Assembly (NCBI GenBank): GCA_000004985.1
Contig: GG738905.1
Origin: Naegleria gruberi
Lineage: Eukaryota
Reading direction: 5' to 3' (one strand)
DNA length: 64,000 bases
Below the pieces are notes generated by a model. That model had not been told where the DNA came from and made no database searches. It saw nothing but the letters and a program-made list of their open reading frames with translations. The first letter of the stretch is position 1, and each line of letters opens with the position of its first letter. A program made the translations under genes and the position numbers. Of the stretch, positions 1,582 through 44,705 are shown in pieces.

Positions 1582-1631
1582 NNNNNNNNNNNNNNNNNNN
1601 NNNNNNNNNNNNNNNNNNNNNNNNNNNNNNN
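1582..1631. other. Assembly gap (50 N)
   Basis: A run of exactly 50 N. Confidence 0.99.
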
Positions 1632-2110: not shown

Positions 2111-3280
2111 ATGGCCAAACGTAAAATAAGTCTGCCCAACGAAATTTTGATTGAAATTTTTCAATTTTTAGAATCATCATTTGTTGTTAACAGTTGTATG
2201 CTCATTTCCAAGAAGTGGTACAAAATCATTTTTAACCAAGTAAAGACACTTTCTTGTGAATTGACATTTCATGACCAGGAGAAGATCGATCGCCTTGTGA
2301 AAAGTCCATGGCTACATAATATTTCAAAGATTAAATTAAGAGCTTGTGATGACTATTTGGAATCAATCAAGGGATTGATGGAAATATTGAAAAGTTACGA
2401 TCAATTACGTAGTGTTGATATTGGTTATTGTTATATTGGAAATAGTCAAACAATTAGTGAAATGAAACAGTTAACATCACTTGATATTGATAATAATTGT
2501 GTGGACGAGCAAGGAGTAAAATTAATTGGTGAATTGCATAATTTGACAAGACTGAACATTGGTTGTAATAGAATTGGCTTGGAAGGTTTCAAATCAATTA
2601 GTGGAATGAAACAGATGAGAGATCTTAATGTCAGTAGTAGTGGTGCTGGAGTAGAAGGAGCTAAATTAATGAGTCAATTGAAACATTTAACAAAGTTTAA
2701 TATTAGTGGAAATGAAATTGGTGAAGAAGGTGCTAAATCGATTGGTGAATTGAAATGGTTAACAATGCTTGACATTTGTAGTAATCAAATTGGTGCAGAA
2801 GGTGCCAAGTCAATTAGTCAATTGGAACGTTTAACAAAGCTATATATTAGTGGTAATGGAATTGGACCAGAAGGAGCTCAATCGATTAGTCAATTGAGTC
2901 ATTTAACGACACTGTTTATTGGTGGTAATCAAATCGGTTCAAAAGGATCCAAATCAATTAGTCAACTGAAACGGTTAACAATTCTGTATATTGATTCTAA
3001 TGAAATTGGTTCTGAAGGAGCAAATTCAATTAGTCAATTGTCAAATTTAAAAGAGCTTTATATTAGTGACAATCAAATTGGTGACGAAGGAGCCAAATCA
3101 ATTAGTCAATTGAAACATTTAACAACACTTGAAATTCTTCGTAATGAAATTGGTGATCAAGGAGCCAAATCAATTAGTCAACTGAAACAATTAACAAGAC
3201 TCCATATAAGTTGCAATCGAATTGGAGATCAAGGAGCAAAATTACTTAATCGAATGAAAATTAATTCTCTAATAAATTAA
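2111..3280 (+). CDS. F-box protein with RNI-type leucine-rich repeats
   Basis: There is an AAAAAAAATGG start context. The N-terminal F-box reads LPNEILIEIFQFL. About 12 regular 28-aa repeats of the form LxxLxIxxNxIGxEGAKxIxxL follow, like ribonuclease-inhibitor LRRs. Confidence 0.7.
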   Translation: MAKRKISLPNEILIEIFQFLESSFVVNSCMLISKKWYKIIFNQVKTLSCELTFHDQEKIDRLVKSPWLHNISKIKLRACDDYLESIKGLMEILKSYDQLRSVDIGYCYIGNSQTISEMKQLTSLDIDNNCVDEQGVKLIGELHNLTRLNIGCNRIGLEGFKSISGMKQMRDLNVSSSGAGVEGAKLMSQLKHLTKFNISGNEIGEEGAKSIGELKWLTMLDICSNQIGAEGAKSISQLERLTKLYISGNGIGPEGAQSISQLSHLTTLFIGGNQIGSKGSKSISQLKRLTILYIDSNEIGSEGANSISQLSNLKELYISDNQIGDEGAKSISQLKHLTTLEILRNEIGDQGAKSISQLKQLTRLHISCNRIGDQGAKLLNRMKINSLIN

Positions 3281-3701
3281 CAAAAAAGCATTGGGAAATA
3301 AATTCAAACCAAATTTTGATAATAATAAAATATCAAAGTGACAATTAGAAATTAATGTCAAAACACCTCACTAATTTTGGACGAATTCAAACACATCTAT
3401 ACAAATATATTTTCAAATTATATTATAATTTGATCAAACACATTGGTAATTGTGCATTTCAATAATTTCTCAATAACACTATCAATTTAATATGTGTGGA
3501 ATAGTTTCAAGTGACTTGTCAATAGACCGAAGAGGAATGGAGGAACTGTATTTTCACATCACAAATAATGCAAAGAAAACAACCCAACTTTAAAAAAGGT
3601 AGTATGTTCTCCCTTTGTTTCCAAATAATAATAATGATTCAATCGGAATCTTAACAACAAGTATTAACGAGGAACCTCTTTTATTACAACAAGAAAAAAA
3701 A

Positions 3702-5321
3702 ATGGACGACGGAATTGATTCAACAAGAGAAGTGCAAGTCTTGAAGGAAGTAGGCTTGAATGCGGATCAAATTTTCCAACTCTTGATGGAGAAGGAAAAG
3801 ACAAGGCAAATAGAATTGGAAATTGTACTCGTGGAAAAGAAGAGAAAATTCTCTGATAACACTACTTCGGATGATGGAGTATTAACAGAATGGAAAAAGA
3901 AAAAACTAAATGAATTATCATCAAGAGCTTTATGTGGGGATGTTTGGATTAATATTTTGGAATTTCTTCCAGGCGTTGAAGGGTTTCGTATGGTGATGCT
4001 TTCTAAACAAGTAATGAGAGCAACAAAACACTTAACTAGAATTGAATTTGACAAACGTGTTAAATCGAGTAGATTAGAAGACTTTATATGTTCTTCACAG
4101 TTTAAGCATATTCAAACCTTGAACATTAACTATACTATTACACAGCCAATGTTTAATATCTTGATAAGGAATTGTGAAAATCTCAAAACATTGACAGTTG
4201 TAGTACCTGATGGTTTTGTTCTTGGCATCCCTAATTCAAACTGTAGTGTGAAAAATTTACGAACTTTACAACTTTCAACGGAATCACTCAACAAAGCCTA
4301 TTTAGAATCGCTCAACTCTTATTTGTTCAACCTCGAAGATTTAAAGTTACCATCATTTAAATCAAAACTTGCTTCTGACTTTCTTAACACCTGCACTAAA
4401 AATATTCGAGTATTAGAAATTGATAAGGTTAATTTCGACTTGGACCCAAAGGACTATCTGCCCAATTTGAAATCTCTGAAAATTCGACGCTTGATATGTA
4501 ATATGAAGATCTTTCTTTCATTTTTTGAAATCAAGACTTTAACTTCACTAAATATGTCCCTTGACAGTTTAAATAATGATGAAGGGTTTACAGAAACAAA
4601 TACTATAATTGAATCCAAGTTGGAATACTTGAAGTTGAATATCACTGGCATGCTTACTGATATAATTTGTAAATATCAATTTCCCAATCTTGAGTGCCTT
4701 TCACTCACTCCTGAATTAACGATGAATTCTGCAACTTCTTTAGGGACCAACTCCAGCTTAGCGAATTTAAAAACGTTGGAACTTTTCGAAACTAGCATTG
4801 ATGAATTGAAAGCGTTATGTAGCTCTATTTATCTTAAGAAGTTAACATCTCTTACTGTAGATTACGAAGATATTCGTGATATCGTTTGTGGTCTAGATTA
4901 TATAACACAATCAGAATCGTTTTCCAATCTATATAACTTGCAATTTTTTGGAAATAATGTAAATTTGGATTTATTTTCCTCCGTTTCTAAATTTTCCAAA
5001 CTCAGATTATTATACCTATATGATCCCGATATTAATTCACTTATTAATTTATCCAAATCCACACATTTTCCACATTTAAGAAAATTAAGGATCTACCTTA
5101 GCGAAATTGTTCCAACCAATTTCCTTGAAAATATTGCTAATAATGAATCATTTCGTAAATTGTTCTATTTAGGCATATGTCTTAATGATGAACAAGTTCC
5201 AATACTAGTTAATGCCAAATATTTCAAATTGAAAAACTTGACAATTTATGGCAAATATGTTACCAATGTAGGAGCTAAAATATTACAGGACCACAACATT
5301 AACTTTGAATTTGACGAATAA
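3702..5321 (+). CDS. F-box-like / LRR protein
   Basis: The start context is A-rich. The F-box-like segment reads WINILEFLPGVEGFRMVMLSKQVM. Irregular Leu-rich repeats (LxxLxLxx) follow through the rest of the 540-aa ORF. Confidence 0.55.
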   Translation: MDDGIDSTREVQVLKEVGLNADQIFQLLMEKEKTRQIELEIVLVEKKRKFSDNTTSDDGVLTEWKKKKLNELSSRALCGDVWINILEFLPGVEGFRMVMLSKQVMRATKHLTRIEFDKRVKSSRLEDFICSSQFKHIQTLNINYTITQPMFNILIRNCENLKTLTVVVPDGFVLGIPNSNCSVKNLRTLQLSTESLNKAYLESLNSYLFNLEDLKLPSFKSKLASDFLNTCTKNIRVLEIDKVNFDLDPKDYLPNLKSLKIRRLICNMKIFLSFFEIKTLTSLNMSLDSLNNDEGFTETNTIIESKLEYLKLNITGMLTDIICKYQFPNLECLSLTPELTMNSATSLGTNSSLANLKTLELFETSIDELKALCSSIYLKKLTSLTVDYEDIRDIVCGLDYITQSESFSNLYNLQFFGNNVNLDLFSSVSKFSKLRLLYLYDPDINSLINLSKSTHFPHLRKLRIYLSEIVPTNFLENIANNESFRKLFYLGICLNDEQVPILVNAKYFKLKNLTIYGKYVTNVGAKILQDHNINFEFDE

Positions 5322-27622: not shown

Positions 27623-28678
27623 ATGCAAATCTACAACTGCACAACTTCTCATACTGATGATTCACTATTATTACAAATGCACGATGATCAAGATCGGCCT
27701 AATACTGTGCTAATGTTATGTGATATACAACCTCATGATAGAGAACATTTACTTCATAAAGAATTAACCCTCAAATTTAAACAAGCCTCCGATCGTGTTA
27801 TTTTGATTACTAATTCTGTGGAAAGATTTAAAAAACATAGAAAGATTGATGAGAGATTGGTTAGGGACTTGGAATTTGCTTTTAGAGTGGTACAAATTGA
27901 AGGAACAGCACTAAGAAAATTGAGAAATCAAAATAGAAGAGTGGCACTAGCAGCTGTTCAGCAAAATGGAAATGCCTATTCCTATATTAAAGGTCCTTTT
28001 CAGAGGGATTTGGAATGTGTGATGAGTGCTGCTTTAACATGTGGTAATAATATTGCCATGAGAATATTGAATCAGGATACATTATCAGATGAAGAAAGAA
28101 TGGGAGTGATGAAACGATTATTAGATAATAGTAGAGTGAATGTAGTTAGGCTATTTCGATGCATGCCCTCTAGTTGCTTTACAAGCTTGAATTTTTGCAT
28201 AGAATTGCTTCCTAAAGTTAAGAATCATTTGTATGATGTAATGTTTGCTTCATTTTGCAGTGATAGAGACGCCTTATTACAACTATTAAGAAATTGTCAG
28301 ACATTTGATCATGGATTTCCAAATTTTGTGGGTAAAGGGTTATGGGATAAAGAATTGGTTTTAGAGATGGTATCTAGGGACGGTATTTCAATTGAACATA
28401 TACCACGTAACTTACAAGCTGACAGGGATATTATTCTGACAGCTGTGAAAAACGACGGAAGAGCATTGATGTTTGCACATCCTCCACATAATTCTGACTT
28501 TGAAATCGTTACAGAAGCTGTCAAGAGTAATGCAAGAGGGTTTTTTTATGTTGATAATGAATTAAAGTCATCCAAGAAGTTTATTGATATGTGTATGAGA
28601 GAAAATCAAGAAGGATTTAGTTATTTGAGACAATACGATCATGAGGTAGAGAGCGGTTTAAGAAAGTTTGGTTACTAA
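27623..28678 (+). CDS. DUF4116-type repeat protein (second copy of the family)
   Basis: The start is A-rich. Repeats include LRNQNRRVALAAVQQNGNAYSYI, LQADRDIILTAVKNDGRALMFA and DFEIVTEAVKSNARGFFYVDNELKSSKKFIDMCM. Confidence 0.6.
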   Translation: MQIYNCTTSHTDDSLLLQMHDDQDRPNTVLMLCDIQPHDREHLLHKELTLKFKQASDRVILITNSVERFKKHRKIDERLVRDLEFAFRVVQIEGTALRKLRNQNRRVALAAVQQNGNAYSYIKGPFQRDLECVMSAALTCGNNIAMRILNQDTLSDEERMGVMKRLLDNSRVNVVRLFRCMPSSCFTSLNFCIELLPKVKNHLYDVMFASFCSDRDALLQLLRNCQTFDHGFPNFVGKGLWDKELVLEMVSRDGISIEHIPRNLQADRDIILTAVKNDGRALMFAHPPHNSDFEIVTEAVKSNARGFFYVDNELKSSKKFIDMCMRENQEGFSYLRQYDHEVESGLRKFGY

Positions 28679-33056: not shown

Positions 33057-35036
33057 ATGTTTTCAAATCTACCACCAGAGATTTTGTACCAAATATTCGC
33101 GTACTATGTCAATCCGTATAATTTGATTGACAATTTGATGGTCTGGCGACAATTAAACATGTCAACCTATTCGATGCTCGAGACGAGTTCTACCTTGTCA
33201 CTATTATTGAACATGTCTATTCGTGATCCATTGGTATTGCAGGCTCCGAGCAGAACTAAATATTATGAACCGTATGGTTTTGTTTTGGATGCTGATAATT
33301 TAGATGATGATGATGATGATGAGGATGAAAAACTTGCATTGAAGAATGGTAATACGGAAGGAGTTGAAAATAATGCTCGTAAAGAAGAAGAAGAAAATAA
33401 TGAAGATGATGATGATGAGGAAGATGAAGAAGGAGAACAGAAATTATTTTACAATAGTCATTGTTTTATTGATCAATTGCTTTTACGTTCTTTACAAAAT
33501 CAATTTATTGGAAGAATGGGAAATAGAGATAAACATCATGAATGGAAGTACAAGACAAGGAATGGAGAGTTGTGTGATCCAAGTGAATATGATTGTTTCA
33601 AAGATGGCCCACAATTTCATGATAAGTTTGAGGAATGGATTGATGCCTACTCTGAGAAGAAGAGTTGGATTTTGCAATTATTGTTGGAAATTAGTCTTGG
33701 AAGGGAAATGATTGAGTATTTGGGGATGAGGAATGTTGGATTTTGCATTGTGCAATATTTTCACAAATTGTTCGAACCTGCCATTCGAACTGTTGAAAAT
33801 TGGAAGGAAAATCCAAAGTCAATTTTGGAATTTTCTGATATTTTCAATAGCAATTTATATGAATTGTTAGAGATGGCCATGAAGAAGGAAACAATTCTCA
33901 AGGATAACATGTCAGATTTCTGGTTTCAAATGGAAACAATTTCAAATTCAATTCCTAGACAAGTTATTTTGTTTATTGCTGAAAACTTTTCACATCTGAA
34001 TATTCGCTTAGGCGAGGGAGAGGAAATGACATGCTCTGTGTTTATATTCCAAGAACTGAGAAAGTTTGGTATTTGTGTGGAGAAGCTCCAATTCTTGGAT
34101 AAACGATCTAAATTTGGAAACTTTGAAAGAACTAGCTTTCTCAACTCGGTCATACCAGAAATTTCCGATGGGTTTTACTTGCAACACTTTGCTGTATGGA
34201 TTAAGAGCATTCCTCTATTAGAATGGTGTTTGGATGTAGATTCAACCCAAATGAATCAAACATTGGCCGAATGTTTACAAAAACCAAACCAATCAATTCT
34301 AAATGTGAAAATGAATTCCTATGCCAAAACCTATCTTGTTGACAAGCTACCATTTACTATTCTACACTATGCTGTATCGATGTGCAATGTTGAAATGGTT
34401 GAATTGTTGACCAACAAATATTTGGCAAATCCAGTGTTTGAAACTACATATCATGCAGTGAGTCCTCTCTCTTTAGCTATAAGAAATAGTAAGAATGTTG
34501 GAAAGGGAAGAAACAATGAAGAGGATGAAATTATGAAAATATTTTCCAAGCATTATCAAAGTGAAATTGAAAAACAAGGCACCAGTTCATCTGTGGGAAG
34601 TGAATCCAAAACTTTCGAAACTGATGGAAGAACGTATGAGGAAGATAATAGTGACCTAGATGAAGAATACTATTCAGATTATTCTTATGATATTCCTCCC
34701 CATCAAAATGTTGTTGTGGAACAATGGAATACTAAAATTTACGATACTCTTGGAGTCACTGACTTTAGTGACGATGAGTACGAGGAGGGATTAGATTTCA
34801 AGCAATTAGGCCACATTTTTAAAAACTTGGAAAATGAAGCAAATAATCCCCTCAAAAGAAAGAGATTTGATCCATTGGCATTCGAAGATTATTCACAAAA
34901 TTTCATTGAAAATAGATTGAAAAATACGATTGCACCTTTTGAATCCAATACATGGGATTACGACCTCAAGCAGGAGTTTGAAGGAGAGTTGACAGAAAAT
35001 ATTCCAGCCATTAAAATTCTGCAAGAGAAGGTGTAA
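33057..35036 (+). CDS. F-box / ankyrin-repeat protein with acidic tracts
   Basis: The start is A-rich. The F-box reads LPPEILYQIFAYYV. An ankyrin-like segment reads ILHYAVSMCNVEMVELLTNKYLANP...SPLSLAIRNS. The ORF ends 12 nt before the N gap. Confidence 0.55.
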   Translation: MFSNLPPEILYQIFAYYVNPYNLIDNLMVWRQLNMSTYSMLETSSTLSLLLNMSIRDPLVLQAPSRTKYYEPYGFVLDADNLDDDDDDEDEKLALKNGNTEGVENNARKEEEENNEDDDDEEDEEGEQKLFYNSHCFIDQLLLRSLQNQFIGRMGNRDKHHEWKYKTRNGELCDPSEYDCFKDGPQFHDKFEEWIDAYSEKKSWILQLLLEISLGREMIEYLGMRNVGFCIVQYFHKLFEPAIRTVENWKENPKSILEFSDIFNSNLYELLEMAMKKETILKDNMSDFWFQMETISNSIPRQVILFIAENFSHLNIRLGEGEEMTCSVFIFQELRKFGICVEKLQFLDKRSKFGNFERTSFLNSVIPEISDGFYLQHFAVWIKSIPLLEWCLDVDSTQMNQTLAECLQKPNQSILNVKMNSYAKTYLVDKLPFTILHYAVSMCNVEMVELLTNKYLANPVFETTYHAVSPLSLAIRNSKNVGKGRNNEEDEIMKIFSKHYQSEIEKQGTSSSVGSESKTFETDGRTYEEDNSDLDEEYYSDYSYDIPPHQNVVVEQWNTKIYDTLGVTDFSDDEYEEGLDFKQLGHIFKNLENEANNPLKRKRFDPLAFEDYSQNFIENRLKNTIAPFESNTWDYDLKQEFEGELTENIPAIKILQEKV

Positions 35037-35049
35037 AAAGAGAAAATGA

Positions 35050-35099
35050 NNNNNNNNNNNNNNNNNNNNNNNNNNNNNNNNNNNNNNNNNNNNNNNNNN
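35050..35099. other. Assembly gap (50 N)
   Basis: A run of 50 N. Confidence 0.99.
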
Positions 35100-35388: not shown

Positions 35389-36303
35389 TTAATCTGCAAA
35401 TCCAGAACCTCCATGGCTTGAGGAGCCACCTCCACCACCACCACCTCCTCCTCCAAAATCATTCGAAGTGGTATAATTGGTATCATTGAAAGAGGAATAA
35501 TTACCACCACTCCCATCACCACCATTTCCTCCACCACCTCCACCTTTTCTATTCCTCAAAACACAAAATAATATCAGACCTGTAAGGAGGAAAGTTCCAC
35601 CAATTACACTAAGGATAATGGCTGCATTGATGGCACTTTGGTCAATTAGGCATTTATCGTATTGGTTGGAATTGGTACGAAAGGTTACGGATGGGGTGTA
35701 TTGAGAAATGAGATTTGATTTCTGATAGAAAATGGAATATTGTTGATTGGAATTGAGTGTGAGAATTCCATTGCTGTCAGGAGTTGGGGGATTTGAGAAA
35801 TCAATAGTGGAATCAAAGATGAATGTGGAATTTAGATTTAAAATCTTGTAATTATCCTTGTAATAATACGAAACTTGATAAGCCTTTTGACTTTCAGTTT
35901 GGAAGAAACTGTTCGATCCAGAAATAGTATACGAAAGTTTAAAGGATAGTACAGTTATTCCATTTTCAGGAGTTGACGGCTCCAAATACAGTACTACATA
36001 TGGACTTTCACTAATTTTCTGATACTCACTTCTAATGTTATATCCATTATCCGAAACTAAAGTCACAGAACGATCATATGCATTGGAAGCGAGTGGAGGT
36101 AATGCTCTTCCAATTCTAGAAAAGGTTCCATTAAATTCATATTGAAAATATTCAACAATTTTCAATGAACAATCTCCGTTTCGAATATAAATTTCAGAAG
36201 AAAGTGATTGTAGTGAGTAGGATTTGGCAGTTGAAGAATTGGTCATGGCTGCTAGCAGCAGTAAAGCTATTAGAAATGCAGACAACAGGACGAAGATTCG
36301 CAT
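35389..36303 (-). CDS. Secreted / single-pass membrane glycoprotein with a poly-Gly cytoplasmic tail
   Basis: A signal peptide (MRIFVLLSAFLIALLLLAAM) precedes an ectodomain with many N-x-S/T sites, a TM helix (AAIILSVIGGTFLLTGLILFCVL) and Gly runs. Confidence 0.5.
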   Translation of the reverse strand: MRIFVLLSAFLIALLLLAAMTNSSTAKSYSLQSLSSEIYIRNGDCSLKIVEYFQYEFNGTFSRIGRALPPLASNAYDRSVTLVSDNGYNIRSEYQKISESPYVVLYLEPSTPENGITVLSFKLSYTISGSNSFFQTESQKAYQVSYYYKDNYKILNLNSTFIFDSTIDFSNPPTPDSNGILTLNSNQQYSIFYQKSNLISQYTPSVTFRTNSNQYDKCLIDQSAINAAIILSVIGGTFLLTGLILFCVLRNRKGGGGGGNGGDGSGGNYSSFNDTNYTTSNDFGGGGGGGGGGSSSHGGSGFAD

Positions 36304-36723: not shown

Positions 36724-37189
36724 TCATTTAGTAATTTCTTTCAATTCATTAAGGTGCAACACTTGAACGTCATACGTATTACTCAATGTGTGAACACCAT
36801 AATCATTTGAAAGAAGCTTTACATTATTATTAATGCAAACGTTTTCTTTGAGATATTTGGCTGTCAAAATAATTTCCTCATCCCATGTAATATCTCCAAC
36901 CAACATGCTCCTAATATATTTCTGAACATCTTCTACAGGTTCATTATGTCTCAATGAACCTAATGAATCAGTAATTTGTTGTAGAGCTACTATTTTTTTC
37001 CTCAAAGCATTATCATTCTTCAAGCCATCCAATTCTATAAGAACTCTCCTGGGGAAACAAACTAACTCACCTAATAATTCAATGTAATCAAATACCTTTT
37101 GAGTTTCATCAATTTTCATGGTTATCAAAATATTGGTGTCAAACACCCAAATGCCAGTTATTGGTTTAACTAAATGATGAACAGTGCTG
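36724..37189 (-). CDS. PIN-domain protein, 5' end lost in the assembly gap
   Basis: The frame stays open from the gap (...LVKPITGIWVFDTNILITMKIDE). The PIN signatures are FDTNILI for the first acidic residue and VLIELDGLK and LLSNDYGV for later ones. Confidence 0.55.
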
Positions 37190-37239
37190 NNNNNNNNNNN
37201 NNNNNNNNNNNNNNNNNNNNNNNNNNNNNNNNNNNNNNN
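37190..37239. other. Assembly gap (50 N)
   Basis: A run of 50 N. Confidence 0.99.
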
Positions 37240-39631
37240 AGCGTAAGTTTGGATTCACTTTGTTGACATTAAGATGTTAATTTTCGAAAATTCAGATGGT
37301 GAAATTGTTGAGTGCTACTCTTTAGAACCATTCATTGAGGGAGAATATCAAAAATATTTTAGTAATAGTGGAGAAGTGCCATGTATTGCGGCAGCCATCC
37401 AGTCTCCAGAAGTAATGGCATTATTCCAGACCTCCCAAACGTTCTCCCATTGGACATATGAAATAACCAAACAAAATTTAATAGTTACAGATATTCAGGG
37501 TGTGAAATATAGAATGACAGATCCAGCAATTTCCTCAGTAGGTCAATTATATGGAGAAACAGACACTGGTGAGGAAGGATTTAAAGACTTTTTTGAAGCT
37601 CACTATTGTAATGAACTTTGTTTAAAACTTGGATTGAAACATCCAAACGGTGATTTGTACATGGAACATCCATCTCTTCCAAAAACAATTTCAAACACAA
37701 TTGACCATGTAGACTTCTGTTCAGGATACTGTTGTGGAAACTATATTGAATACAAGATTGGTGAGAAAACACCAGATGGCACGCTTTTTTGCAACAAATG
37801 TAACCAGCGTAATAGTATAACTGAAAAGAAAGTTTGTAAAAAGAAAGGATGTTCCCTTAAATTTGAAATTGAAAGATGGTATTGGGTATCAACTGGAAAA
37901 CATCCACCAACCAAATGTCATCTACACAGAGGAACTATAGCATCTGAATTAAGGGATTGGAAGAAAAACAAAACCCTACCAAATGGAGCTCTCTTCACTC
38001 AAGAAGAAATGCAAAATCAATTAGATAAGGATCCAGATTTGAAAAAGCAATTTGAGAAGAGTATCATCCAAGAAAAGAAACCAGATTTATTTAATACTGT
38101 TGTTATTTCAAATCTCCCTGCTAGAACAAATTCCATGGATATCTTTAATATGCTTCCCCCTTTCTTCACTAATAGAAATCAGAAAGTGAAAGTCACTGAA
38201 CTTGAAGTGCCTTCAACCTTCAGCATTGAGTTTGAGAATGAACCAATTGCGTTAGAGGCATATCAAATTCTTGGATCATACATCCATAGAAGAAGATTAA
38301 TTGTTTGTAGACCTCTACAACACAAACATGAATCAGTGAAACTGGATAAAAGCTCCATCAATATTCAGTTGTCAAAGTATCCAAATGTTAAATGCAGTGA
38401 TATTTTACAATATTTCAAGGATTCGAATTACAAAATTCAAGACAAGTACTATGAGGAAAACAAGTTTGCAAATTTCACATTCTCTGATCCCTCAATAGCA
38501 CCAACCTTGGTCTCAAAAGGTTTATCTATTGATGGCACACTTGTTAAAGTTGTTTATAAGAAGGAGAAGCCAATTACTAAACAAGATGTACCACTAAAGA
38601 ATTTTAAGGAAAAGAAAATAGAAATTGATGAAAACGTTGACAAGACATCTGTACACATCAAATGGAGACCTAAAAATCCATCCGAATCTGTTCAGTTGCA
38701 AGAGATTGATCTTTTAAAACTTTTGAACCAATCTGACATTTTTAAGAAGAAATTCAATTCTGCTAAATCATTTATGCAAATTACTTTCAAATCAGAACAA
38801 TCTGCAGCATTATTGATTAAAAATGGTTTAAAGTTGCCAAACTTCAAGTTTACAATCAATTTCAAGAAGATACAAGAAAATGAAAGGAGCAATGATTGTA
38901 ATGAAAAACGAGTACAAAGTGAGGCCAAATCCAAAAAAGAAAAGCAATATCCAAAGGTTGTGGCAAACTCGCTTACTCCAACATCTGATTCAACTACCAA
39001 AAATCTTAAAAGCAATATTTCAACATCTAACAATCAATCACCCAAGCAACAAAATATTTCTAAAATGCAAAATTTGATGTTTGTTTTTGATATTAACACA
39101 CTTTTGAAAATTGGTAATTTACGTAATTTACTAGGACAATTTCTAGAAAACCACATCCAGTTTTGTGTTCCAGATATTAAATTGGACGAAATGAACGAAG
39201 ACACGTTTGCGGTTCAAAATTTAGTAGATGAATTCAAAGAAATCAATGTACAAGTTCCTGATGAATCAAATAATCTCACTTTAAGAACTCTTAAAGTAAC
39301 CAAAAAGGTGTCTGACAATTATCCAAATAGGAATGTTATGCTTGTGACAGATGATAAAGAATTGAAAGCTAACGCAGATAAATTCAGATTGAATGTTATC
39401 AATAGCTCAGCAATGAATCAATTAATTAGACAGTCAAGCGTAAATAATTCAGTACCAAAGCCAATACCATCAATTTCCAATCCATCACAAAAATCTACAA
39501 CTATTCCAACAACTAATACTGTTGAAACAATTATCATAGAACCATCTAATCAAAGAACAACCAACACACCTGTACCTGTTCCTGTTTTGCAAAGTATGAC
39601 CAAACTGATTAGTCATGGAAAGAGAAAATGA
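37240..39631 (+). CDS. Alpha-kinase (C-terminal half of the catalytic domain) - Cys/His-rich cluster - long Lys-rich linker - C-terminal PIN-like domain. The 5' end is lost in the gap.
   Basis: The frame is open from the gap. LEPFIEGEYQKYFSNSG ... TDIQGVKYRMTDPAI ... GETDTGEEGFKDFFEAHYCNELCLKL matches the alpha-kinase (eEF2K/MHCK) C-lobe, including DxQG, TDP and the Gly-rich and HxCN motifs. The Cys/His cluster is CSGYCCGN...CNKCNQ...CKKKGC...CHLH. The C-terminal FVFDINTLLK...CVPDIKLDEM...VMLVTDDKELKANA is PIN-like. Confidence 0.7.
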
Positions 39632-39772: not shown

Positions 39773-42700
39773 CTAATGGAGAGAAATGATAGCTTGTTTT
39801 TCCACATGTTGAGCACTTGAAGACATTCTCAAATTATCTAAACTCATTCTCAATGCAGAATCTCCTCCTCTAAAAACCTCCAAAGTTCCCTCCCTTAAAT
39901 CATCTTCCTTATTTGGTTCGTGAATGTATGTTTTCATTTGACCTTTTCCTTTCACTTCGACATATCGTTCTTGGAATTCGTGTTTATCTTTGAGTCGTTG
40001 ATAGCATGTTTCGGTTACTTGAATGAATCCTGCAGGGCATGTACTTTCCATTCTTGAAGCAGTCTTTGATAATGTTATTTAAATTGTAAAGTGTGAAAAA
40101 TAAACTTACATTCACAGCATCAGACCAGACATCGTAGGCATATTTCAATACTCCACAAACTCCTGCAACTATTGGTCCAGAGTTAATGCCAACTCTTATT
40201 CCAATATTCAATCCATGATCCTCACAAAACAATTGAACTACTTCTGACAACTTGACAGCAAATGTGAAAGTTCTTTCCACATGATGAGCTTCATTCATAC
40301 CATCAGGTTTCAATCCAGCAGTACAGAAATACTTGGATCCAATTGTCTTTATCTTTTCCAAATTGAAATTGATGGTCAAGTCATCAAATTCATGAATAAT
40401 TTCATTCAAAGTTTGAACCAAATCAAAAGCAGATAAATTCAAATCCAATAATCCAACAATATCACTAAACAAAATGGTTACATCATCGAACTTGTCAGCA
40501 ATCAGAGTTTCTCCTGCAATCAGACGTTGAGCTACACTCTCTGGCATGATATTCATCAAGAGAGATTCGCTTTTTTTCTTTTCCTCAGCTAGTTCCTTAA
40601 CTTGTACTTTGTGTTCTGAAATATCACGCATGAAACATGAAATGATGTTTCGTCCTTCTAGTGCCGAAACTGAAATTCTCAATTCAACTGGGAATGATGA
40701 AGAATTCTTTCTTAAACCATTTAGTTCAAGAGTTTCAGAATAGCTTGTGGCAGAAACTCCCATTTTGGAAATGACTGGTTCTAGATTGGCAGCTGATTCC
40801 TTGTCAAATAATTTGTGGAGTGGAAATCCAATAATTTGATCTCCTCTGAATCCAAATAACTTTTCAGAAGCATTGTTGAAAATGTCAATTGTGCCACTTG
40901 ATGAGCAAATGACAGCACTCGTTAAGGCAGCTTCTAGAATGGCTCTTTCTTTTGTCGTTTTGAATTTGTTTTTCGATCTGGACTTTCCATTAGATAAGAG
41001 ATGGAAGAAGATATAGTTTCGAATATCGTCATTGGTATCCAATATTTCCCATGGAATGTAATTGAACAATTTTCTGAGAACATAATTTTCATTCTCAATG
41101 GTAGAGGTATACGTGTAGGTAATCCATGTCAGAAATAGCAATAATGGACAACCTAGGACAGCTGACAGTATTGTCATCAATGGTTGTTCTTGGAAAAAGT
41201 TGTAATAACAGAGTTTGTTTAAGGTTTCCAAATTGGTGAGTAGTACTATGGAATGATCAAAGAGAAATTCTGCCAATTCATTGATTTGTTTCATTTCTAG
41301 AGAGATAGTTTCGTTTGAGATTAGTAATTGATTGAAATTCAAAATGCTAGTTCTGAACTGCCCTATTTGGGTATCCAAAGATTGACAATCAAAATGAGAA
41401 CAATTAGTTGGCAATGTCAATAATAAATTGTCGATATTCGGATTGAATCCACTCAAACTAAAGTAATCATCAATTTGAGAACCATATCTCAACATATTCC
41501 AGTTTCTGTCAAATAAACTCATATCTGCCAATAATCTGTCATGAAATTTAACTCTCTTCTCATAATCTGCAATTGAAGCTACTTGAAGAAGATCATATCT
41601 TAAACTCTGAGATATATGCATTGATTGTGCTGTAGATTCCAACTTGTAAAGTCCATGTTCCAATATTTTCAATTTTCTGAAAATATCAGCAACGATCAAA
41701 GACATGGTTGCTGTGGCCACAATGAAGGACAAACAAACAACAATTACCAAAAAACTATTGGATGAGATACTATCCTTTGTGGAGTCTACATTCGTACCAT
41801 CCTTATCAATCAATCTCTCCATTCCAATAATGACCTTCTTGGATTCGTCTTTTGGAATTTTCTTAAACAAGTTTAGGATTTGTTTTCTCTGGTGAAGGAA
41901 TTTAAAACTACAAAAACCATTGAAAATCAAATATAGAAAGAAAATTAATCCAATAAATGATGATAAGGCAATGTAAGCATATGAATAGTTCCTTAATTCG
42001 CCTTGTTGGAATTGAAGAGTTTTTTGGAAGAAATCTAACATTCCATCTGAGAATGCTACTCGATTCATTTCAATGAAATTCAATAATTCTTGACTGATCT
42101 TCAAGTTGGATGTGTTTGTGGAAATAATTGTTTCAGATAGAACTCGTTTCGTCTTTTTCACAAACCATGAAGTTGAGGAATTTTTGTAAACTTGATTATC
42201 AAGAAGGAGAGTCTTGTCTTGTTTAGTATACAATAAGGAAACCAATTCATTGAATGAGAAGGAATCGAATAGAGTTTCGAACGAGTCAATCTTTGCAAGG
42301 TCGTTTTCCAGAACGTTCTGAAATGATTTTCTATACTCTAAAGATGAGCTATAATTCAAAGTTGACATTGCTCCAATATTTCCATTCACATTCGAAACTC
42401 CACAAAGTGTAGAAGTCGGAATTGAACTCAACATGGCAGATTTCAACAAAATATCGAATACACTATCATTCTGTGTAAATGAAAGTCCAACAATTAACAA
42501 AATTGCAATCAACACAATCGAAACCAAACCAGAGCTCACAATAAAATAAAACGTCGTTCTATTCTCATCCTTCTTATGAAGTGCCGAGCTGAAAACTTCT
42601 TGTTGCTTATCAGCTTGATCCATCAACTCTTCTGGTTGTTGTTCACTTACAGAGATGGAATCAAAGGCCTCATCATTGACATTCTCACTGAACATGTCGA

Positions 42701-44705
42701 CTCTCATGCCGTTGTTGTTATTGCTGCTACTACTTGTGTAGCTCTTTGTTATGATGAGTTCTCCGTGTGTTTTATCTGATCTTTCATTATCTGAGTTGTT
42801 GTTATTGGATGAAGAATGTTGTGAGGATGGTTTGAATTTGAATTCTTCCTGATATTGAGCGAACATTTTCTGAATGGCATGATCTTCCTCATTGTCTATA
42901 AGGAGATTGTGGAAAGCTAGGTCGCATTCATTGGATAATCTTTGAATTTGTTGAACAATAGTGTCAACAGCAACAGAGGCCAATAAATTCTTCCAAAATT
43001 GGACAATTAGTAATCTAAGCATTTTGATTCTACGCTTCGTTCCCTCCATAATGATATCAGAGGCTCCCGAAGATGAAGTTCTCCCTTCAGATAAATTCTT
43101 TTCCAACTCTTTTGTTCGAATATAGAGAGAATATTGAATGAAAATGTTGGCTCTCTTTTTCTCTGCCTTCTTAATCACTATTAAGGCAAGAAAGAAGTTT
43201 GGTATTTCCTTGTAGAACATGGAAATGAGAATTAAACTCTGAGCATCATGGACTTCTGATTTGTGAACGATTCTAATGGCATCATTTGCTAATTTCTTAT
43301 CCTCATCCGATCCTTTCAATGAAAATTTAATAAAAGTTGACAAGTAAGGCAACTCTCTCTGTGTTAACAGGACATCAGATCCACAATTTACAATTGCCTT
43401 AGCGAGATGCGACCCCCTCCTCTTCACAGACTTGGAATAGAATTCCAATATCAGAAATCCAATCACGAAAAAGATGATTCCCAAAACAAGAGGTGAAAAA
43501 GTCAATCCCAATCCAAATTCCCACATGTCATCCACGTTGATGAGAGTACTCACGAGTGAGGCAATTCCTACTCCAACTCGAGCAAATCCAATTCCACCAT
43601 AAACTGCATTGGCTTTCCTCCTCAAGAATGGTAAATCGACAAACATCAAGACAATAAATCCAATAGAAAGAACAATATAATAGACAGGTCTCAGGAAATT
43701 GACTATATGAGGAGTCACTCCTGCCACAATCAAGTACAATTGATTCGTTCCAATCAGATAGCTCATCACGAATGGATTCTCCAAAACAAATTTGGCCTTA
43801 CTCGCCACCATCGTATCACAAAATATCATGACCGCGCTCATAGTGATCAGAATTTGAATGATACAGAACAGTAAACTGATACTAGCCAATATACCATTCA
43901 TCGTGCCCCAGCATTCCACATTTCTGAAATTCCTCAATGCAAATGAAGGTGGAGCTCCCTGAACAATAGAAACCTTACTAGTAAAATCACAATCAAAGAA
44001 ACCTTGCATGAGACCATAGGTTATTGGCAGAGAGAGGAAGGTCATTAGGAAGAAGACAAATCTACCTCCAGTTCTGATCTTTTTCCAATAAGAGCTACCC
44101 AGAATGATGGATCGGTAGGTAATGTAAATAATCAGAAAGCAAATTGACTGCATCACAAAGACAATCACTGCCAATGCAATAAATCCTTCATAGGGCAAGT
44201 ATTGAAATCCCAATGTTCTTGGTATGAGTAATATGTTATAAATGTATCTGCCATATTCACCCCAATTATAATCGATGGCCACTCCTAGTGAAAGCGTCTG
44301 ATAGGCAATCAGCATGTGTATCGAGAGACACATGAGTGGATGCAATGGTTTTTCCAATTTGAGTGATTGAACAAACATGAATAGTTTCCTAGTGATGGCT
44401 CCTTGATTGTCTGTTTGTGAAGGTTGTGAATTCACACCAGACAGTTCATCAGAAATTACATTAAAGTAACCACCTCCTCCTGCTGTTGTTTTTGTTATTG
44501 CTGCTGCTTGATTCCCTGAAGCATTATTAAGACTACTAGTACTTCCATTGATGGGAAGGATTGAGTTGGAGCTGGGAGCTTCGGAGAGTCTGTTAGTCGA
44601 TCGTCTGGAGAGAAAATTCGACCTCGTCTTGAGATTCCTTCCACTATTACTAGTATGAAGTGTATTGTTATTGTTATTATTTGAATTTGAATTTGATTTA
44701 TCCAT
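39773..44705 (-). CDS. Polytopic membrane protein with a PAS domain and a single C-terminal class III nucleotidyl cyclase homology domain. Exons are 44705..40110 and 40063..39773.
   Basis: The N-terminus is Asn-rich, followed by at least 8 TM helices, a roughly 300-aa loop and more TM helices. The PAS domain reads ILEAALTSAVICSSSGTIDIFNNASEKLFGFRGDQIIGFPL...FPVELRISV...CFMRDISEHK. The cyclase block reads FSDIVGL...EKIKTIGSKYFC...GIRVGINSGPIVAGVCG...YDVWSDAVN|TASRMEST. A 47-nt GTAAGT...CAAAG intron is present. Confidence 0.8.

What the first reader, a model, noticed from the sequence alone, without database searches (positions are those of the whole stretch)
37240..39631. Alpha-kinase catalytic domain fused to a Cys/His cluster and a C-terminal PIN-like nuclease domain
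The first 120 residues are unmistakably the C-lobe of an alpha-kinase, with EPFIEGEY.KY.SNSG, D(I)QGV, TDP and G.TD.GEEGFKDFFEAHYCNELC. The N-lobe lies in the 50-N gap. Downstream are a CxxC/CxxC/CxH-rich segment, a long Lys-rich linker and a C-terminal region with PIN-domain hallmarks (FVFDINTLLK, VPDIKLDEM, VMLVTDDKEL). The known dictyostelid alpha-kinases I am aware of pair the kinase with WD40, vWA or Arf-GAP modules. A kinase-nuclease fusion would be an unusual signalling and RNA-processing architecture.
Basis: partly seen in the sequence, partly recalled or inferred. Interest (0 to 1): 0.7.

Follow-up and report, generated by a model that had tools for sequence, protein, structure and literature searches.

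The report
Alpha-kinase with probable PIN tail
This is a gap-truncated Naegleria gruberi gene for an atypical (alpha-type) protein kinase whose tail carries a conserved zinc module, an RNA-recognition-motif-like domain and, probably but not provably, a divergent PIN-type RNA-cutting domain, a combination not described for this kinase family.

Summary
The window is Naegleria gruberi, not a dictyostelid. The ORF at 37247-39631 (+) is the public 'predicted protein' XP_002671445, whose model is cut by the 50-N gap.

**Confirmed**
- An alpha-kinase C-lobe (Pfam E=3.9e-34, profile positions 81-185 of 185). The catalytic and zinc-binding motifs of the C-lobe are all present.
- A Cys/His cluster. It is a conserved eight-ligand zinc module shared with three relatives.
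- One uninterrupted 795-codon frame.

**Corrected**
- The "Lys-rich linker" is largely three RRM-like repeats. The first has profile support; the other two are inconclusive.
- The nearest relatives are vWA-plus-alpha-kinase (vWKa-type) proteins, so the gap probably hides a vWA domain and the N-lobe.

**The PIN claim is suggestive only**
- Pfam PIN_4 scores 20.3 bits, below the 21.9 cut-off (E=7e-4). Ten shuffled controls reached at most 16.5 bits, and none hit PIN.
- Similarity to the true PIN_4 gene next door has shuffle p≈0.003.
- All four acidic positions can be aligned to SMG6 (D606, E639, E664, D694).
- Against this, two AlphaFold runs failed. An exhaustive search of 1.84 billion proteins found no homologue of this part. 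The closest relative, from N. lovaniensis, lacks it.

I put a PIN fold at about 0.65 and an active nuclease at about 0.4. It is a new variant of a known kind, of moderate interest.

The parts
37190..37239 (.). 50-N assembly gap. It hides the 5' part of the kinase gene (the N-lobe and probably a vWA domain) and the 5' end of the divergent PIN_4 gene.
   Evidence: gap coordinates; the N-terminal 480 aa of the closest relative find nothing elsewhere in the window.
37247..39631 (+). Single open reading frame (794 codons plus stop) = Naegleria gruberi NAEGRDRAFT_73532 / XP_002671445. The public model starts only at MTDPAISS.
37286..37621 (+). Alpha-kinase C-lobe (ORF aa 5-116). Motifs: DIQG 37490-37501, TDP 37517-37525, Gly-rich GETDTGEEG 37553-37579, zinc-finger HYCNELC 37601-37621.
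   Evidence: Pfam PF02816, E=3.9e-34, profile 81-185/185. TRPM7 1IA9 E=4.6e-15, eEF2K 6e-15, MHCK-A 1e-13.
37715..37933 (+). Conserved eight-ligand (7 Cys + 1 His) zinc module with the PPxxCxxHRG signature. It matches no Pfam family and no PDB chain.
   Evidence: conserved in P0002, P0003 and P0005. (no known family).
38087..38317 (+). RRM-like domain 1 (aa 272-348). It is shared with the N. lovaniensis relative.
   Evidence: the alignment runs through aa 344; the profile's top PDB hits are RRMs, with CELF2 RRM at E=0.0034; 11 of 11 hits are RRM/UHM domains. Pfam itself finds nothing.
38351..38869 (+). RRM-like repeats 2 and 3 (aa 360-430 and 458-532). The assignment is weak.
   Evidence: they align with repeat 1; only 2 of 4 weak PDB hits are RRMs, which is inconclusive.
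38870..39073 (+). Low-complexity S/K/N/Q-rich linker (aa 533-600).
   Evidence: composition.
39074..39433 (+). PIN_4-like C-terminal domain (aa 601-720). Candidate acidic tetrad: D606 (39089-39091), E639 (39188-39190), E664 (39263-39265), D694 (39353-39355).
   Evidence: PIN_4 at E=7e-4 and 20.3 bits, below the 21.9-bit cut-off. (shuffle controls); similarity to the neighbouring PIN, p about 0.003; hhalign P=0.007. (SMG6 motif alignment).
39434..39628 (+). S/T/P/N-rich tail ending in the basic residues HGKRK (aa 721-785).
36724..37189 (-). Divergently oriented neighbouring gene with a genuine PIN_4 domain. Its 5' end runs into the same gap.
   Evidence: PF13638, E=2e-8, 35 bits, profile 1-129/132. 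(public model P0004).

Best explanation
The feature is the 3' four-fifths of one Naegleria gruberi gene, cut at its 5' end by an assembly gap.

**Architecture, N-terminus to C-terminus**
- Probably a vWA domain and the kinase N-lobe, both hidden in the gap.
- The alpha-kinase C-lobe, with every C-lobe catalytic and zinc-binding residue.
- A family-conserved two-zinc module.
- One RRM-like domain shared with relatives.
- Two further degenerate RRM-like repeats.
- A low-complexity linker.
- A lineage-specific C-terminal alpha/beta domain. It is most likely a divergent PIN_4 (SMG6-type) domain that keeps acidic residues at all four metal-binding positions: D606, E639, E664 and D694.

**Proposed mechanism (inferred, not shown)**
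- The RRM-like and zinc modules dock the protein on an RNA-protein particle.
- The alpha-kinase phosphorylates itself or a partner there, as eEF2 kinase acts on the translation machinery.
- The PIN-like domain cuts, or at least grips, the bound RNA.
- One polypeptide would therefore couple phosphorylation to RNA cleavage.

**Proposed origin (inferred)**
The PIN part was probably added in the N. gruberi lineage. A local PIN_4 gene of the kind still present next door is a plausible source.
For: **Shown**
- Identity to N. gruberi XP_002671445.
- Alpha-kinase C-lobe at 118.8 bits, aligned to the solved TRPM7, eEF2K and MHCK-A kinases.
- One stop-free frame of 795 codons, against 46 and 94 stops in the other two frames. 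AT skew is uniformly positive along it.
- 36% identity over ORF aa 1-344 to the N. lovaniensis vWA-alpha-kinase P0002 (E=3e-58). This links kinase, zinc module and RRM-like domain 1 in one protein in a second species.
- Invariant Cys/His ligands in the zinc module.
- RRM-only top hits for the repeat profiles.

**Suggestive for PIN**
- PIN_4 is the only Pfam family found for the segment: E=7e-4, 20.3 bits.
- Ten shuffled or reversed controls reached at most 16.5 bits, each to a different unrelated family.
- Smith-Waterman score against the neighbouring true PIN_4 has z=3.9 and p about 0.003. Five control segments of the same ORF gave p=0.17-0.91.
- hhalign against the neighbour plus SMG6 gives P=0.007, placing the VMLVTDD strand on SMG6 VVLLTDD. 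A control segment gives 0.26.
- Motif alignment to the verified SMG6 sequence puts D606, E639, E664 and D694 on D1251, E1282, D1353 and D1392.
Against: - PIN_4 is below Pfam's gathering score. Only profile positions 86-129 align, and the N-terminal half alone hits nothing.
- With this composition Pfam E-values are optimistic by about an order of magnitude.
- Both AlphaFold2 runs gave unusable models, with pLDDT 41.5 and 34.4. Foldseek on the first returned only noise.
- The exhaustive HMMER search of 1.84 billion representatives found no relative of anything beyond aa 292.
- PDB, NCBIfam, PHROGs and PADLOC searches, and the plasmid, viral, prokaryote-genome and metagenome scans, found nothing for the PIN-like segment.
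- The N. lovaniensis relative and its 22.7-kb locus have no PIN-like sequence.
- The alignment of the third acidic motif was made by eye.
- The canonical aromatic RNP1/RNP2 residues are mostly missing in RRM-like domain 1, so RNA binding is not established.
- No transcript data were available.
Confidence: 0.55

Rival explanations
1. The C-terminal 120 residues are an orphan, fast-evolving domain or region unrelated to PIN. The FVFDxN, LDE and TDD motifs and the sub-threshold PIN_4 score are chance resemblances in an AT-rich, Asn/Lys/Asp-rich protein. The protein would then be simply a vWKa-type alpha-kinase with zinc and RRM-like modules and a species-specific tail.
For: - PIN_4 is below the gathering score and covers only about 40 residues.
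- 6 of 10 shuffled sequences also get some Pfam hit at E of 0.14 or better, the best being 0.0065.
- No homologue exists anywhere for this part.
- AlphaFold2 failed twice.
- BLASTP and Smith-Waterman against SMG6 are not significant (p=0.10).
- The closest relative lacks the region.
Against: - The one family hit is the family predicted in advance from the motifs, and it is the family of the gene next door. No control hit PIN.
- Independent similarity to the neighbouring PIN covers the N-terminal motifs that Pfam did not align.
- BLASTP also fails for the genuine PIN_4 neighbour against SMG6, so that failure says little.
- The four acidic positions fall at the expected spacing, including Pro+6=Glu in all three sequences.
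Confidence: 0.27
2. The domain has a PIN fold but is a pseudonuclease, like SMG5. It would serve as a protein- or RNA-binding adaptor for the kinase rather than as a catalyst.
For: - The third acidic position is Glu rather than Asp, and its alignment is uncertain.
- The domain is unusually compact, lacking about 23 residues between motifs 2 and 3 relative to the neighbour.
- No orthologue is available to show purifying selection on the tetrad.
Against: - All four positions can be filled with acidic residues.
- The genuine PIN_4 neighbour also has Glu at the third position.
Confidence: 0.25
3. The fusion is an artefact. Either the kinase part and the C-terminal part belong to different transcripts or genes, or the locus is a decaying pseudogene next to a misassembled gap.
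For: - An in-frame TAA at 37244-37246 lies directly after the gap.
- The gene is interrupted by a gap of unknown size.
- No transcript evidence was available.
- The region beyond RRM-like domain 1 has no support from homologues.
Against: - The 795-codon stop-free frame compares with 46 and 94 stops in the other frames of 33% GC DNA. The chance expectation is about 1e-27 (my calculation from base composition).
- The 68-codon low-complexity linker is also open.
- The public gene model joins all the parts.
- Composition and AT skew are uniform along the ORF.
- There are no repeats or mobile-element signs.
Confidence: 0.07

Closest known systems
vWKa (von Willebrand factor A alpha-kinase) of Dictyostelium and its relatives (Pfam VWA_4 + Alpha_kinase)
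   Same: - It has the same kinase family.
- The best database relatives all carry VWA_4 + Alpha_kinase.
- The kinase domain of the N. lovaniensis relative sits at aa 397-584, as in Dictyostelium vWKa, where it is at aa 398-592 (PMC2827801).
   Different: - The vWA domain cannot be seen here because it would lie in the gap.
- This protein continues for about 670 residues after the kinase, with a two-zinc module, RRM-like repeats and a PIN-like domain. The review of the family does not mention any of these.
SMG6 / PIN_4 (PF13638) endonuclease domains (human SMG6 PIN, PDB 2HWW)
   Same: - The motif order and spacing agree: hhhDxN, P-x5-E, [DE]-x3-L-[ST] and hhLhT[DN]D.
- Its VMLVTDDKELKANA aligns with SMG6 VVLLTDDRNLRVKA.
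   Different: - It falls below the Pfam threshold.
- It is shorter between motifs 2 and 3.
- The third acidic residue is Glu.
- It is fused to a kinase. In nonsense-mediated decay the kinase (SMG1) and the PIN nuclease (SMG6) are separate proteins (established knowledge).
IRE1 and RNase L (kinase or pseudokinase fused to a KEN ribonuclease)
   Same: The concept is the same: a kinase-type domain and an endoribonuclease in one polypeptide, so that phosphorylation or nucleotide binding can gate RNA cleavage (established knowledge).
   Different: Both modules have completely different folds, an eukaryotic protein kinase and a KEN domain rather than an alpha-kinase and a PIN domain. No functional coupling has been shown here.
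MARF1 / Regnase-type proteins (PIN-like NYN nuclease combined with RRM or CCCH RNA-binding modules)
   Same: They combine RRM-type or zinc modules with a PIN-like nuclease. The relative P0003 ends in a CCCH finger.
   Different: They have no kinase, their nuclease is NYN rather than PIN_4, and no sequence relationship was detected.

Membership tests
Alpha-kinase (PF02816) | Profile match above the curated cut-off | tested here: met
   118.8 bits against a cut-off of 21.3, E=3.9e-34. Only profile positions 81-185 are covered.
Alpha-kinase (PF02816) | C-lobe catalytic motifs: DxQG catalytic Asp/Gln, the TDP metal-binding Asp and the Gly-rich loop | tested here: met
   DIQG (aa 73-76), TDP (aa 82-84) and GETDTGEEG (aa 94-102) align with the corresponding TRPM7 and eEF2K residues.
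Alpha-kinase (PF02816) | C-lobe zinc finger (His plus His-x-Cys-x3-Cys) | tested here: met
   FSHWTYE and AHYCNELC align with TRPM7 FSHWTYE and KHHCNSCC. The role of this motif is described in PMC2827801.
Alpha-kinase (PF02816) | N-lobe with the ATP-binding Lys and P-loop | not testable with these tools
   Profile positions 1-80 are missing and the sequence runs into the N gap. They are not found elsewhere in the window.
vWKa subfamily | N-terminal vWA domain | not testable with these tools
   It would lie in the gap. The nearest relatives (P0002, P0005, P0006, P0008 and others) have VWA_4.
PIN_4 (PF13638) | Profile match above the curated cut-off | tested here: not met
   19.8-20.3 bits against a cut-off of 21.9, covering profile positions 86-129 only. 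It is not reported at all for the whole protein. The score is 3.8 bits above the best of 10 shuffled controls.
PIN_4 (PF13638) | Four conserved acidic active-site residues | tested here: inconclusive
   D606, E639, E664 and D694 can be placed on SMG6 D1251, E1282, D1353 and D1392. This rests on motif alignment. Motif 3 was aligned by eye, because MAFFT put it in a gap.
PIN_4 (PF13638) | Three-layer alpha/beta/alpha PIN fold | tested here: inconclusive
   AlphaFold2 gave pLDDT 41.5 with a single sequence and 34.4 with a two-sequence alignment. Foldseek returned only noise.
PIN_4 (PF13638) | Metal-dependent ribonuclease activity | not testable with these tools
   This needs biochemistry.
RRM (PF00076 and relatives) | Profile match | tested here: not met
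   No Pfam hit at E of 10 or better for any of the three repeats, nor in P0002.
RRM (PF00076 and relatives) | Similarity to solved RRM domains | tested here: inconclusive
   The profile of all six repeats gives 11 of 11 PDB hits that are RRM/UHM domains, the best at E=0.01. The repeat-1 group gives CELF2 RRM at E=0.0034, with most of its 29 hits being RRMs. The repeat-2/3 group gives only 2 RRMs among 4 hits, at E about 1.
RRM (PF00076 and relatives) | Aromatic RNP1/RNP2 residues for RNA stacking | tested here: not met
   By inspection of the alignment, VVISNL and STFSIEF lack the canonical aromatic residues at the stacking positions. RNA binding is therefore unproven.

The most novel reading that the evidence does not exclude
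An active bifunctional enzyme in which an alpha-kinase and a PIN endonuclease are coupled on an RNA-binding scaffold. It would be a third, independently evolved kinase-ribonuclease design beside IRE1 and RNase L. It would sit within a previously unnoticed clade of vWKa-type alpha-kinases whose conserved zinc and RRM-like C-terminal extension targets them to RNA-protein particles. Members seen here are the N. gruberi and N. lovaniensis proteins and the CCCH-bearing P0003.
Probability: 0.2. Interest if true: 0.7.

Novelty: new variant of a known kind. Interest (0 to 1): 0.4.

Why it matters
- Alpha-kinases are known to combine with vWA, WD40, ion-channel and other modules (PMC2827801). I found no report of one joined to RNA-binding or nuclease domains. 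None of the 18 closest database relatives carries a PIN domain.
- If the tail is a working PIN nuclease, the protein would put phosphorylation and RNA cleavage under one roof. It would also suggest RNA-linked roles for the poorly understood vWKa branch.
- The conserved post-kinase zinc module is an undescribed domain that appears in several lineages, whatever the fate of the PIN claim.
- The evidence has clear limits. It rests on a single species. The gene is incomplete, and the PIN assignment is sub-threshold. Naegleria is also rich in unusual domain shuffles, so this is a lead rather than a discovery.

Tried and rejected
**Structure prediction**
- AlphaFold2 on aa 583-735 alone, then on the domain aligned with the neighbouring PIN, gave pLDDT 41.5 and 34.4. 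Both models are unusable.

**Searches for homologues of the PIN-like part (none gave a usable alignment)**
- Word-indexed search of 5.8 billion proteins: only the protein itself.
- Exhaustive HMMER search of 1.84 billion representatives: hits only to the zinc region.
- Metagenome scan: one spurious bacterial contig, L002.
- Viral and prokaryotic genome scans: nothing.
- Plasmid tblastn: nothing.

**Sequence searches against libraries and structures**
- PDB sequence searches with the C-terminal domain, the neighbouring PIN and their two-sequence profile found no PIN chain. Because the genuine PIN_4 neighbour also fails, this is uninformative rather than negative.
- NCBIfam, PHROGs and PADLOC gave nothing relevant.
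- BLASTP against SMG6 found no alignment for either Naegleria PIN.

**Readings considered and rejected**
- A short intron at 37243-37295 (gtaagt...ttcag) just after the gap. The residues encoded there (VWIHFVDIKMLIFENSDGEI) align with the N. lovaniensis relative (IGLKVLEIQLLVFTDANDDI), so they are coding.
- The missing N-lobe being misplaced elsewhere in the window. tblastn found nothing.
- A mobile-element or repeat origin. No meaningful repeats were found.

**Other**
- The bacterial promoter and terminator scan is irrelevant for a eukaryote and gave no more sites than shuffles.
Full report
**What is at the coordinates**

The window has a run of 50 N at 37190-37239. To its right one reading frame is open from 37247 to the stop at 39629-39631. 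The other two frames carry 46 and 94 stops over the same stretch of 33% GC DNA. From base composition I calculate that a random 795-codon open frame would occur with a probability near 1e-27.

The translation from MTDPAISS onward is 100% identical to 'predicted protein [Naegleria gruberi]' (EFC38701 / XP_002671445, NAEGRDRAFT_73532, 705 aa). Its only recorded Pfam domain is Alpha_kinase. The organism is therefore the heterolobosean Naegleria gruberi, not a dictyostelid. The public model is shortened because of the gap.

**Kinase part**

ORF residues 5-116 match Pfam Alpha_kinase positions 81-185 of 185, with E=3.9e-34. The closest solved structures are:
- the TRPM7 kinase domain (1IA9, E=4.6e-15);
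- eEF2 kinase (6e-15);
- myosin heavy chain kinase A (1e-13).

The alignments line up DIQG, TDP, the Gly-rich loop and the His/Cys zinc-finger residues. The role of that zinc finger is described in PMC2827801.

The N-lobe is missing. The N-terminal 480 residues of the nearest relative find nothing elsewhere in the window.

An in-frame TAA lies at 37244-37246, directly after the gap. The residues from 37247 onward (VWIHFVDIKMLIFENSDGEI) align with the relative (IGLKVLEIQLLVFTDANDDI). That rules out the short gtaagt...ttcag intron I first suspected. The TAA could be the end of an intron or an error at the contig edge. I could not tell which.

**Relatives**

An exhaustive HMMER search of 1.84 billion representative proteins with the 663 non-kinase residues returned only two other proteins.
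- **P0002** is a 911-aa Naegleria lovaniensis protein (XP_044543997). It has VWA_4 at aa 98-192 and a complete Alpha_kinase domain at aa 397-584. It aligns with our ORF at 36% identity over aa 1-344 (E=3e-58). That span covers the kinase C-lobe, the Cys/His region, a helical spacer and the first repeat after it.
- **P0003** comes from a Logan assembly of an unknown organism. It has a weak alpha-kinase, the same Cys/His region, one similar repeat and a CCCH zinc finger.

A profile search with the three sequences gave 18 hits. Beyond the protein itself, the best of them are VWA_4 + Alpha_kinase proteins or bare alpha-kinase proteins from Heterostelium, Stentor and metagenomes. None has a PIN domain.

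The gene therefore belongs to the vWKa branch of alpha-kinases (PMC2827801). By homology the gap probably hides about 470 residues.

The N. lovaniensis locus L001 shows weak upstream colinearity with the window. It contains nothing similar to ORF aa 345-785 or to the neighbouring PIN gene.

**Cys/His cluster**

The alignments show invariant C-x4-C ... C-x2-C ... C ... C ... C-x2-H ligands and a PPxxCxxHRG signature in three sequences. In the fourth, more distant sequence seven of the eight ligand positions are invariant. Eight ligands imply two zinc ions.

No Pfam family and no PDB chain matches it. It is a conserved and apparently undescribed module.

**The 'linker'**

Residues 272-532 are not a linker. 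They form three repeats of about 75 residues with a beta-alpha-beta-beta-alpha-beta-like pattern.
- Pfam finds nothing in them.
- A profile of the six such repeats from the three proteins hits only RRM/UHM domains in the PDB: 11 of 11 hits, the best being PfSR1 RRM1 at E=0.01.
- The repeat-1 group alone gives CELF2 RRM at E=0.0034, followed mostly by further RRMs.
- Repeats 2 and 3 are inconclusive.

The canonical aromatic RNP residues are largely absent, so RNA binding is not established. Only aa 533-600 is a true low-complexity linker.

**PIN-like C-terminus: evidence for**

- When the segment is scanned alone, PIN_4 is the only Pfam family reported. It scores E=7e-4 to 1.1e-3 and 19.8-20.3 bits, matching RTLKVTKKVSDNYPNRNVMLVTDDKELKANADKFRLNVI to profile positions 86-129 of 132.
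- One reversed and nine shuffled versions of the segment gave unrelated families at E of 0.0065 or worse (16.5 bits or less), and none gave PIN. This also shows that E-values are about tenfold optimistic for this composition.
- The ORF immediately left of the gap on the opposite strand (36724-37189) is a genuine PIN_4 domain, with E=2e-8 and 35 bits over profile positions 1-129.
- The C-terminal segment resembles that neighbour.
  - BLASTP gives E=0.018.
  - A Smith-Waterman shuffle test gives z=3.9 and p about 0.003.
  - Five control segments of the same ORF gave p=0.17-0.91.
  - The alignment covers the N-terminal FVFDxN and CxP...LD motifs that Pfam did not align.
- hhalign of the neighbour plus SMG6 against the segment gives P=0.007 at the correct place. 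A control segment gives 0.26.
- I verified the human SMG6 PIN sequence against PDB 2HWW, where it is 100% identical. Motif alignment then places D606 on D1251. E639 falls on E1282, with Pro+6=Glu in all three sequences. E664 falls on D1353 and D694 on D1392.

**PIN-like C-terminus: evidence against**

- The Pfam score is below the 21.9-bit gathering cut-off, and PIN_4 is not reported at all for the full protein.
- The N-terminal half alone hits nothing.
- The placement of motif 3 is by eye.
- Both AlphaFold2 runs failed.
- No homologue of this part exists in any collection searched.
- The closest relative lacks it.
- BLASTP against SMG6 also fails for the genuine PIN_4 neighbour, so that negative result carries little weight.

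I estimate about 0.65 that this is a PIN-fold domain and about 0.4 that it is an active nuclease.

**One gene or two**

These points favour a single gene:
- the frame is continuous through the linker;
- composition and AT skew are uniform along the ORF;
- there are no repeats around the locus;
- the public model joins all the parts.

The kinase-zinc-RRM1 junction is confirmed in a second species. The junction to the PIN-like part has no such support, and no transcript data were available.

**Mechanism (inferred)**

The most coherent reading is a vWKa-type alpha-kinase tethered by zinc and RRM-like modules to an RNA-protein particle. A PIN-type endonuclease or pseudonuclease sits at its end, so that phosphorylation and RNA cleavage or capture are coupled.
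- Conceptual parallels are IRE1 and RNase L (a kinase-type domain fused to a KEN RNase), SMG1 and SMG6 in nonsense-mediated decay, and eEF2 kinase as an alpha-kinase acting on the translation machinery. This comparison rests on established knowledge and was not tested here.
- The varying RNA-type C-terminal modules in relatives fit a family theme. These are two RRM-like repeats in N. lovaniensis, and one RRM-like repeat plus a CCCH finger in P0003.
- The divergent PIN_4 neighbour suggests that the PIN part was acquired locally in the N. gruberi lineage.

**Comparison with the literature, and verdict**

Full-text searches found no paper combining alpha-kinase with PIN or RRM domains. The family review lists vWA, WD40, channel and other partners only.

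The feature is a new variant of a known kind and of moderate interest. It is limited by the gap, by being seen in one species, and by a PIN assignment that stays below formal thresholds.

Noticed in passing
window 36724-37189 (-): A divergently oriented gene with a genuine PIN_4 domain (E=2e-8) is truncated by the same gap. The public model (P0004, 131 aa) starts at the internal Met MKIDETQ. It therefore omits the first strand, IWVFDTN, which carries the first catalytic Asp.
   Followed up: partly
window 37715-37933 (+); also P0002 aa 625-700, P0003, P0005: An eight-ligand Cys/His module with a PPxxCxxHRG signature follows the alpha-kinase domain in at least four proteins from different lineages. 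It matches no Pfam family and no PDB chain, so it is a candidate undescribed zinc domain.
   Followed up: partly
L003 857-3745 (P0003, Logan SRR28082858): A distant relative with a weak alpha-kinase that lacks the HxCxxxC zinc finger. It also has the same zinc module, one RRM-like repeat and a C-terminal CCCH finger. The organism is unknown.
   Followed up: partly
window 37244-37246: An in-frame TAA lies directly right of the gap, within 'gtaag', and homology-supported coding starts at 37247. It could be the end of an intron or an error at the contig edge.
   Followed up: partly
window 39773-44705 (-): A convergent downstream gene encodes a large protein with a PAS domain and a class III adenylate/guanylate cyclase domain. 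The long hydrophobic stretches in its translation suggest it is a multi-pass membrane protein. The cyclase profile is split between two ORFs (positions 3-132 and 136-180). This implies a short intron near 40.05-40.11 kb, where 'acttac' at 40104-40109 reads gtaagt on the minus strand.
   Followed up: partly
window 1582-1631 and 35050-35099: Two further 50-N scaffold gaps. The second interrupts the region just after the 659-aa ORF at 33057-35036.
   Followed up: no
window 35389-36303 (-): A 304-aa ORF with an N-terminal hydrophobic leader, a predicted membrane span and a poly-Gly tail. It has no Pfam match.
   Followed up: no
L001 (N. lovaniensis PYSW02000042.1) 3036-4682 versus window 27900-28650: A repeat-containing protein upstream of the alpha-kinase is shared between the two Naegleria loci. 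This gives weak colinearity and suggests P0002 is the positional counterpart despite only 36% identity.
   Followed up: partly
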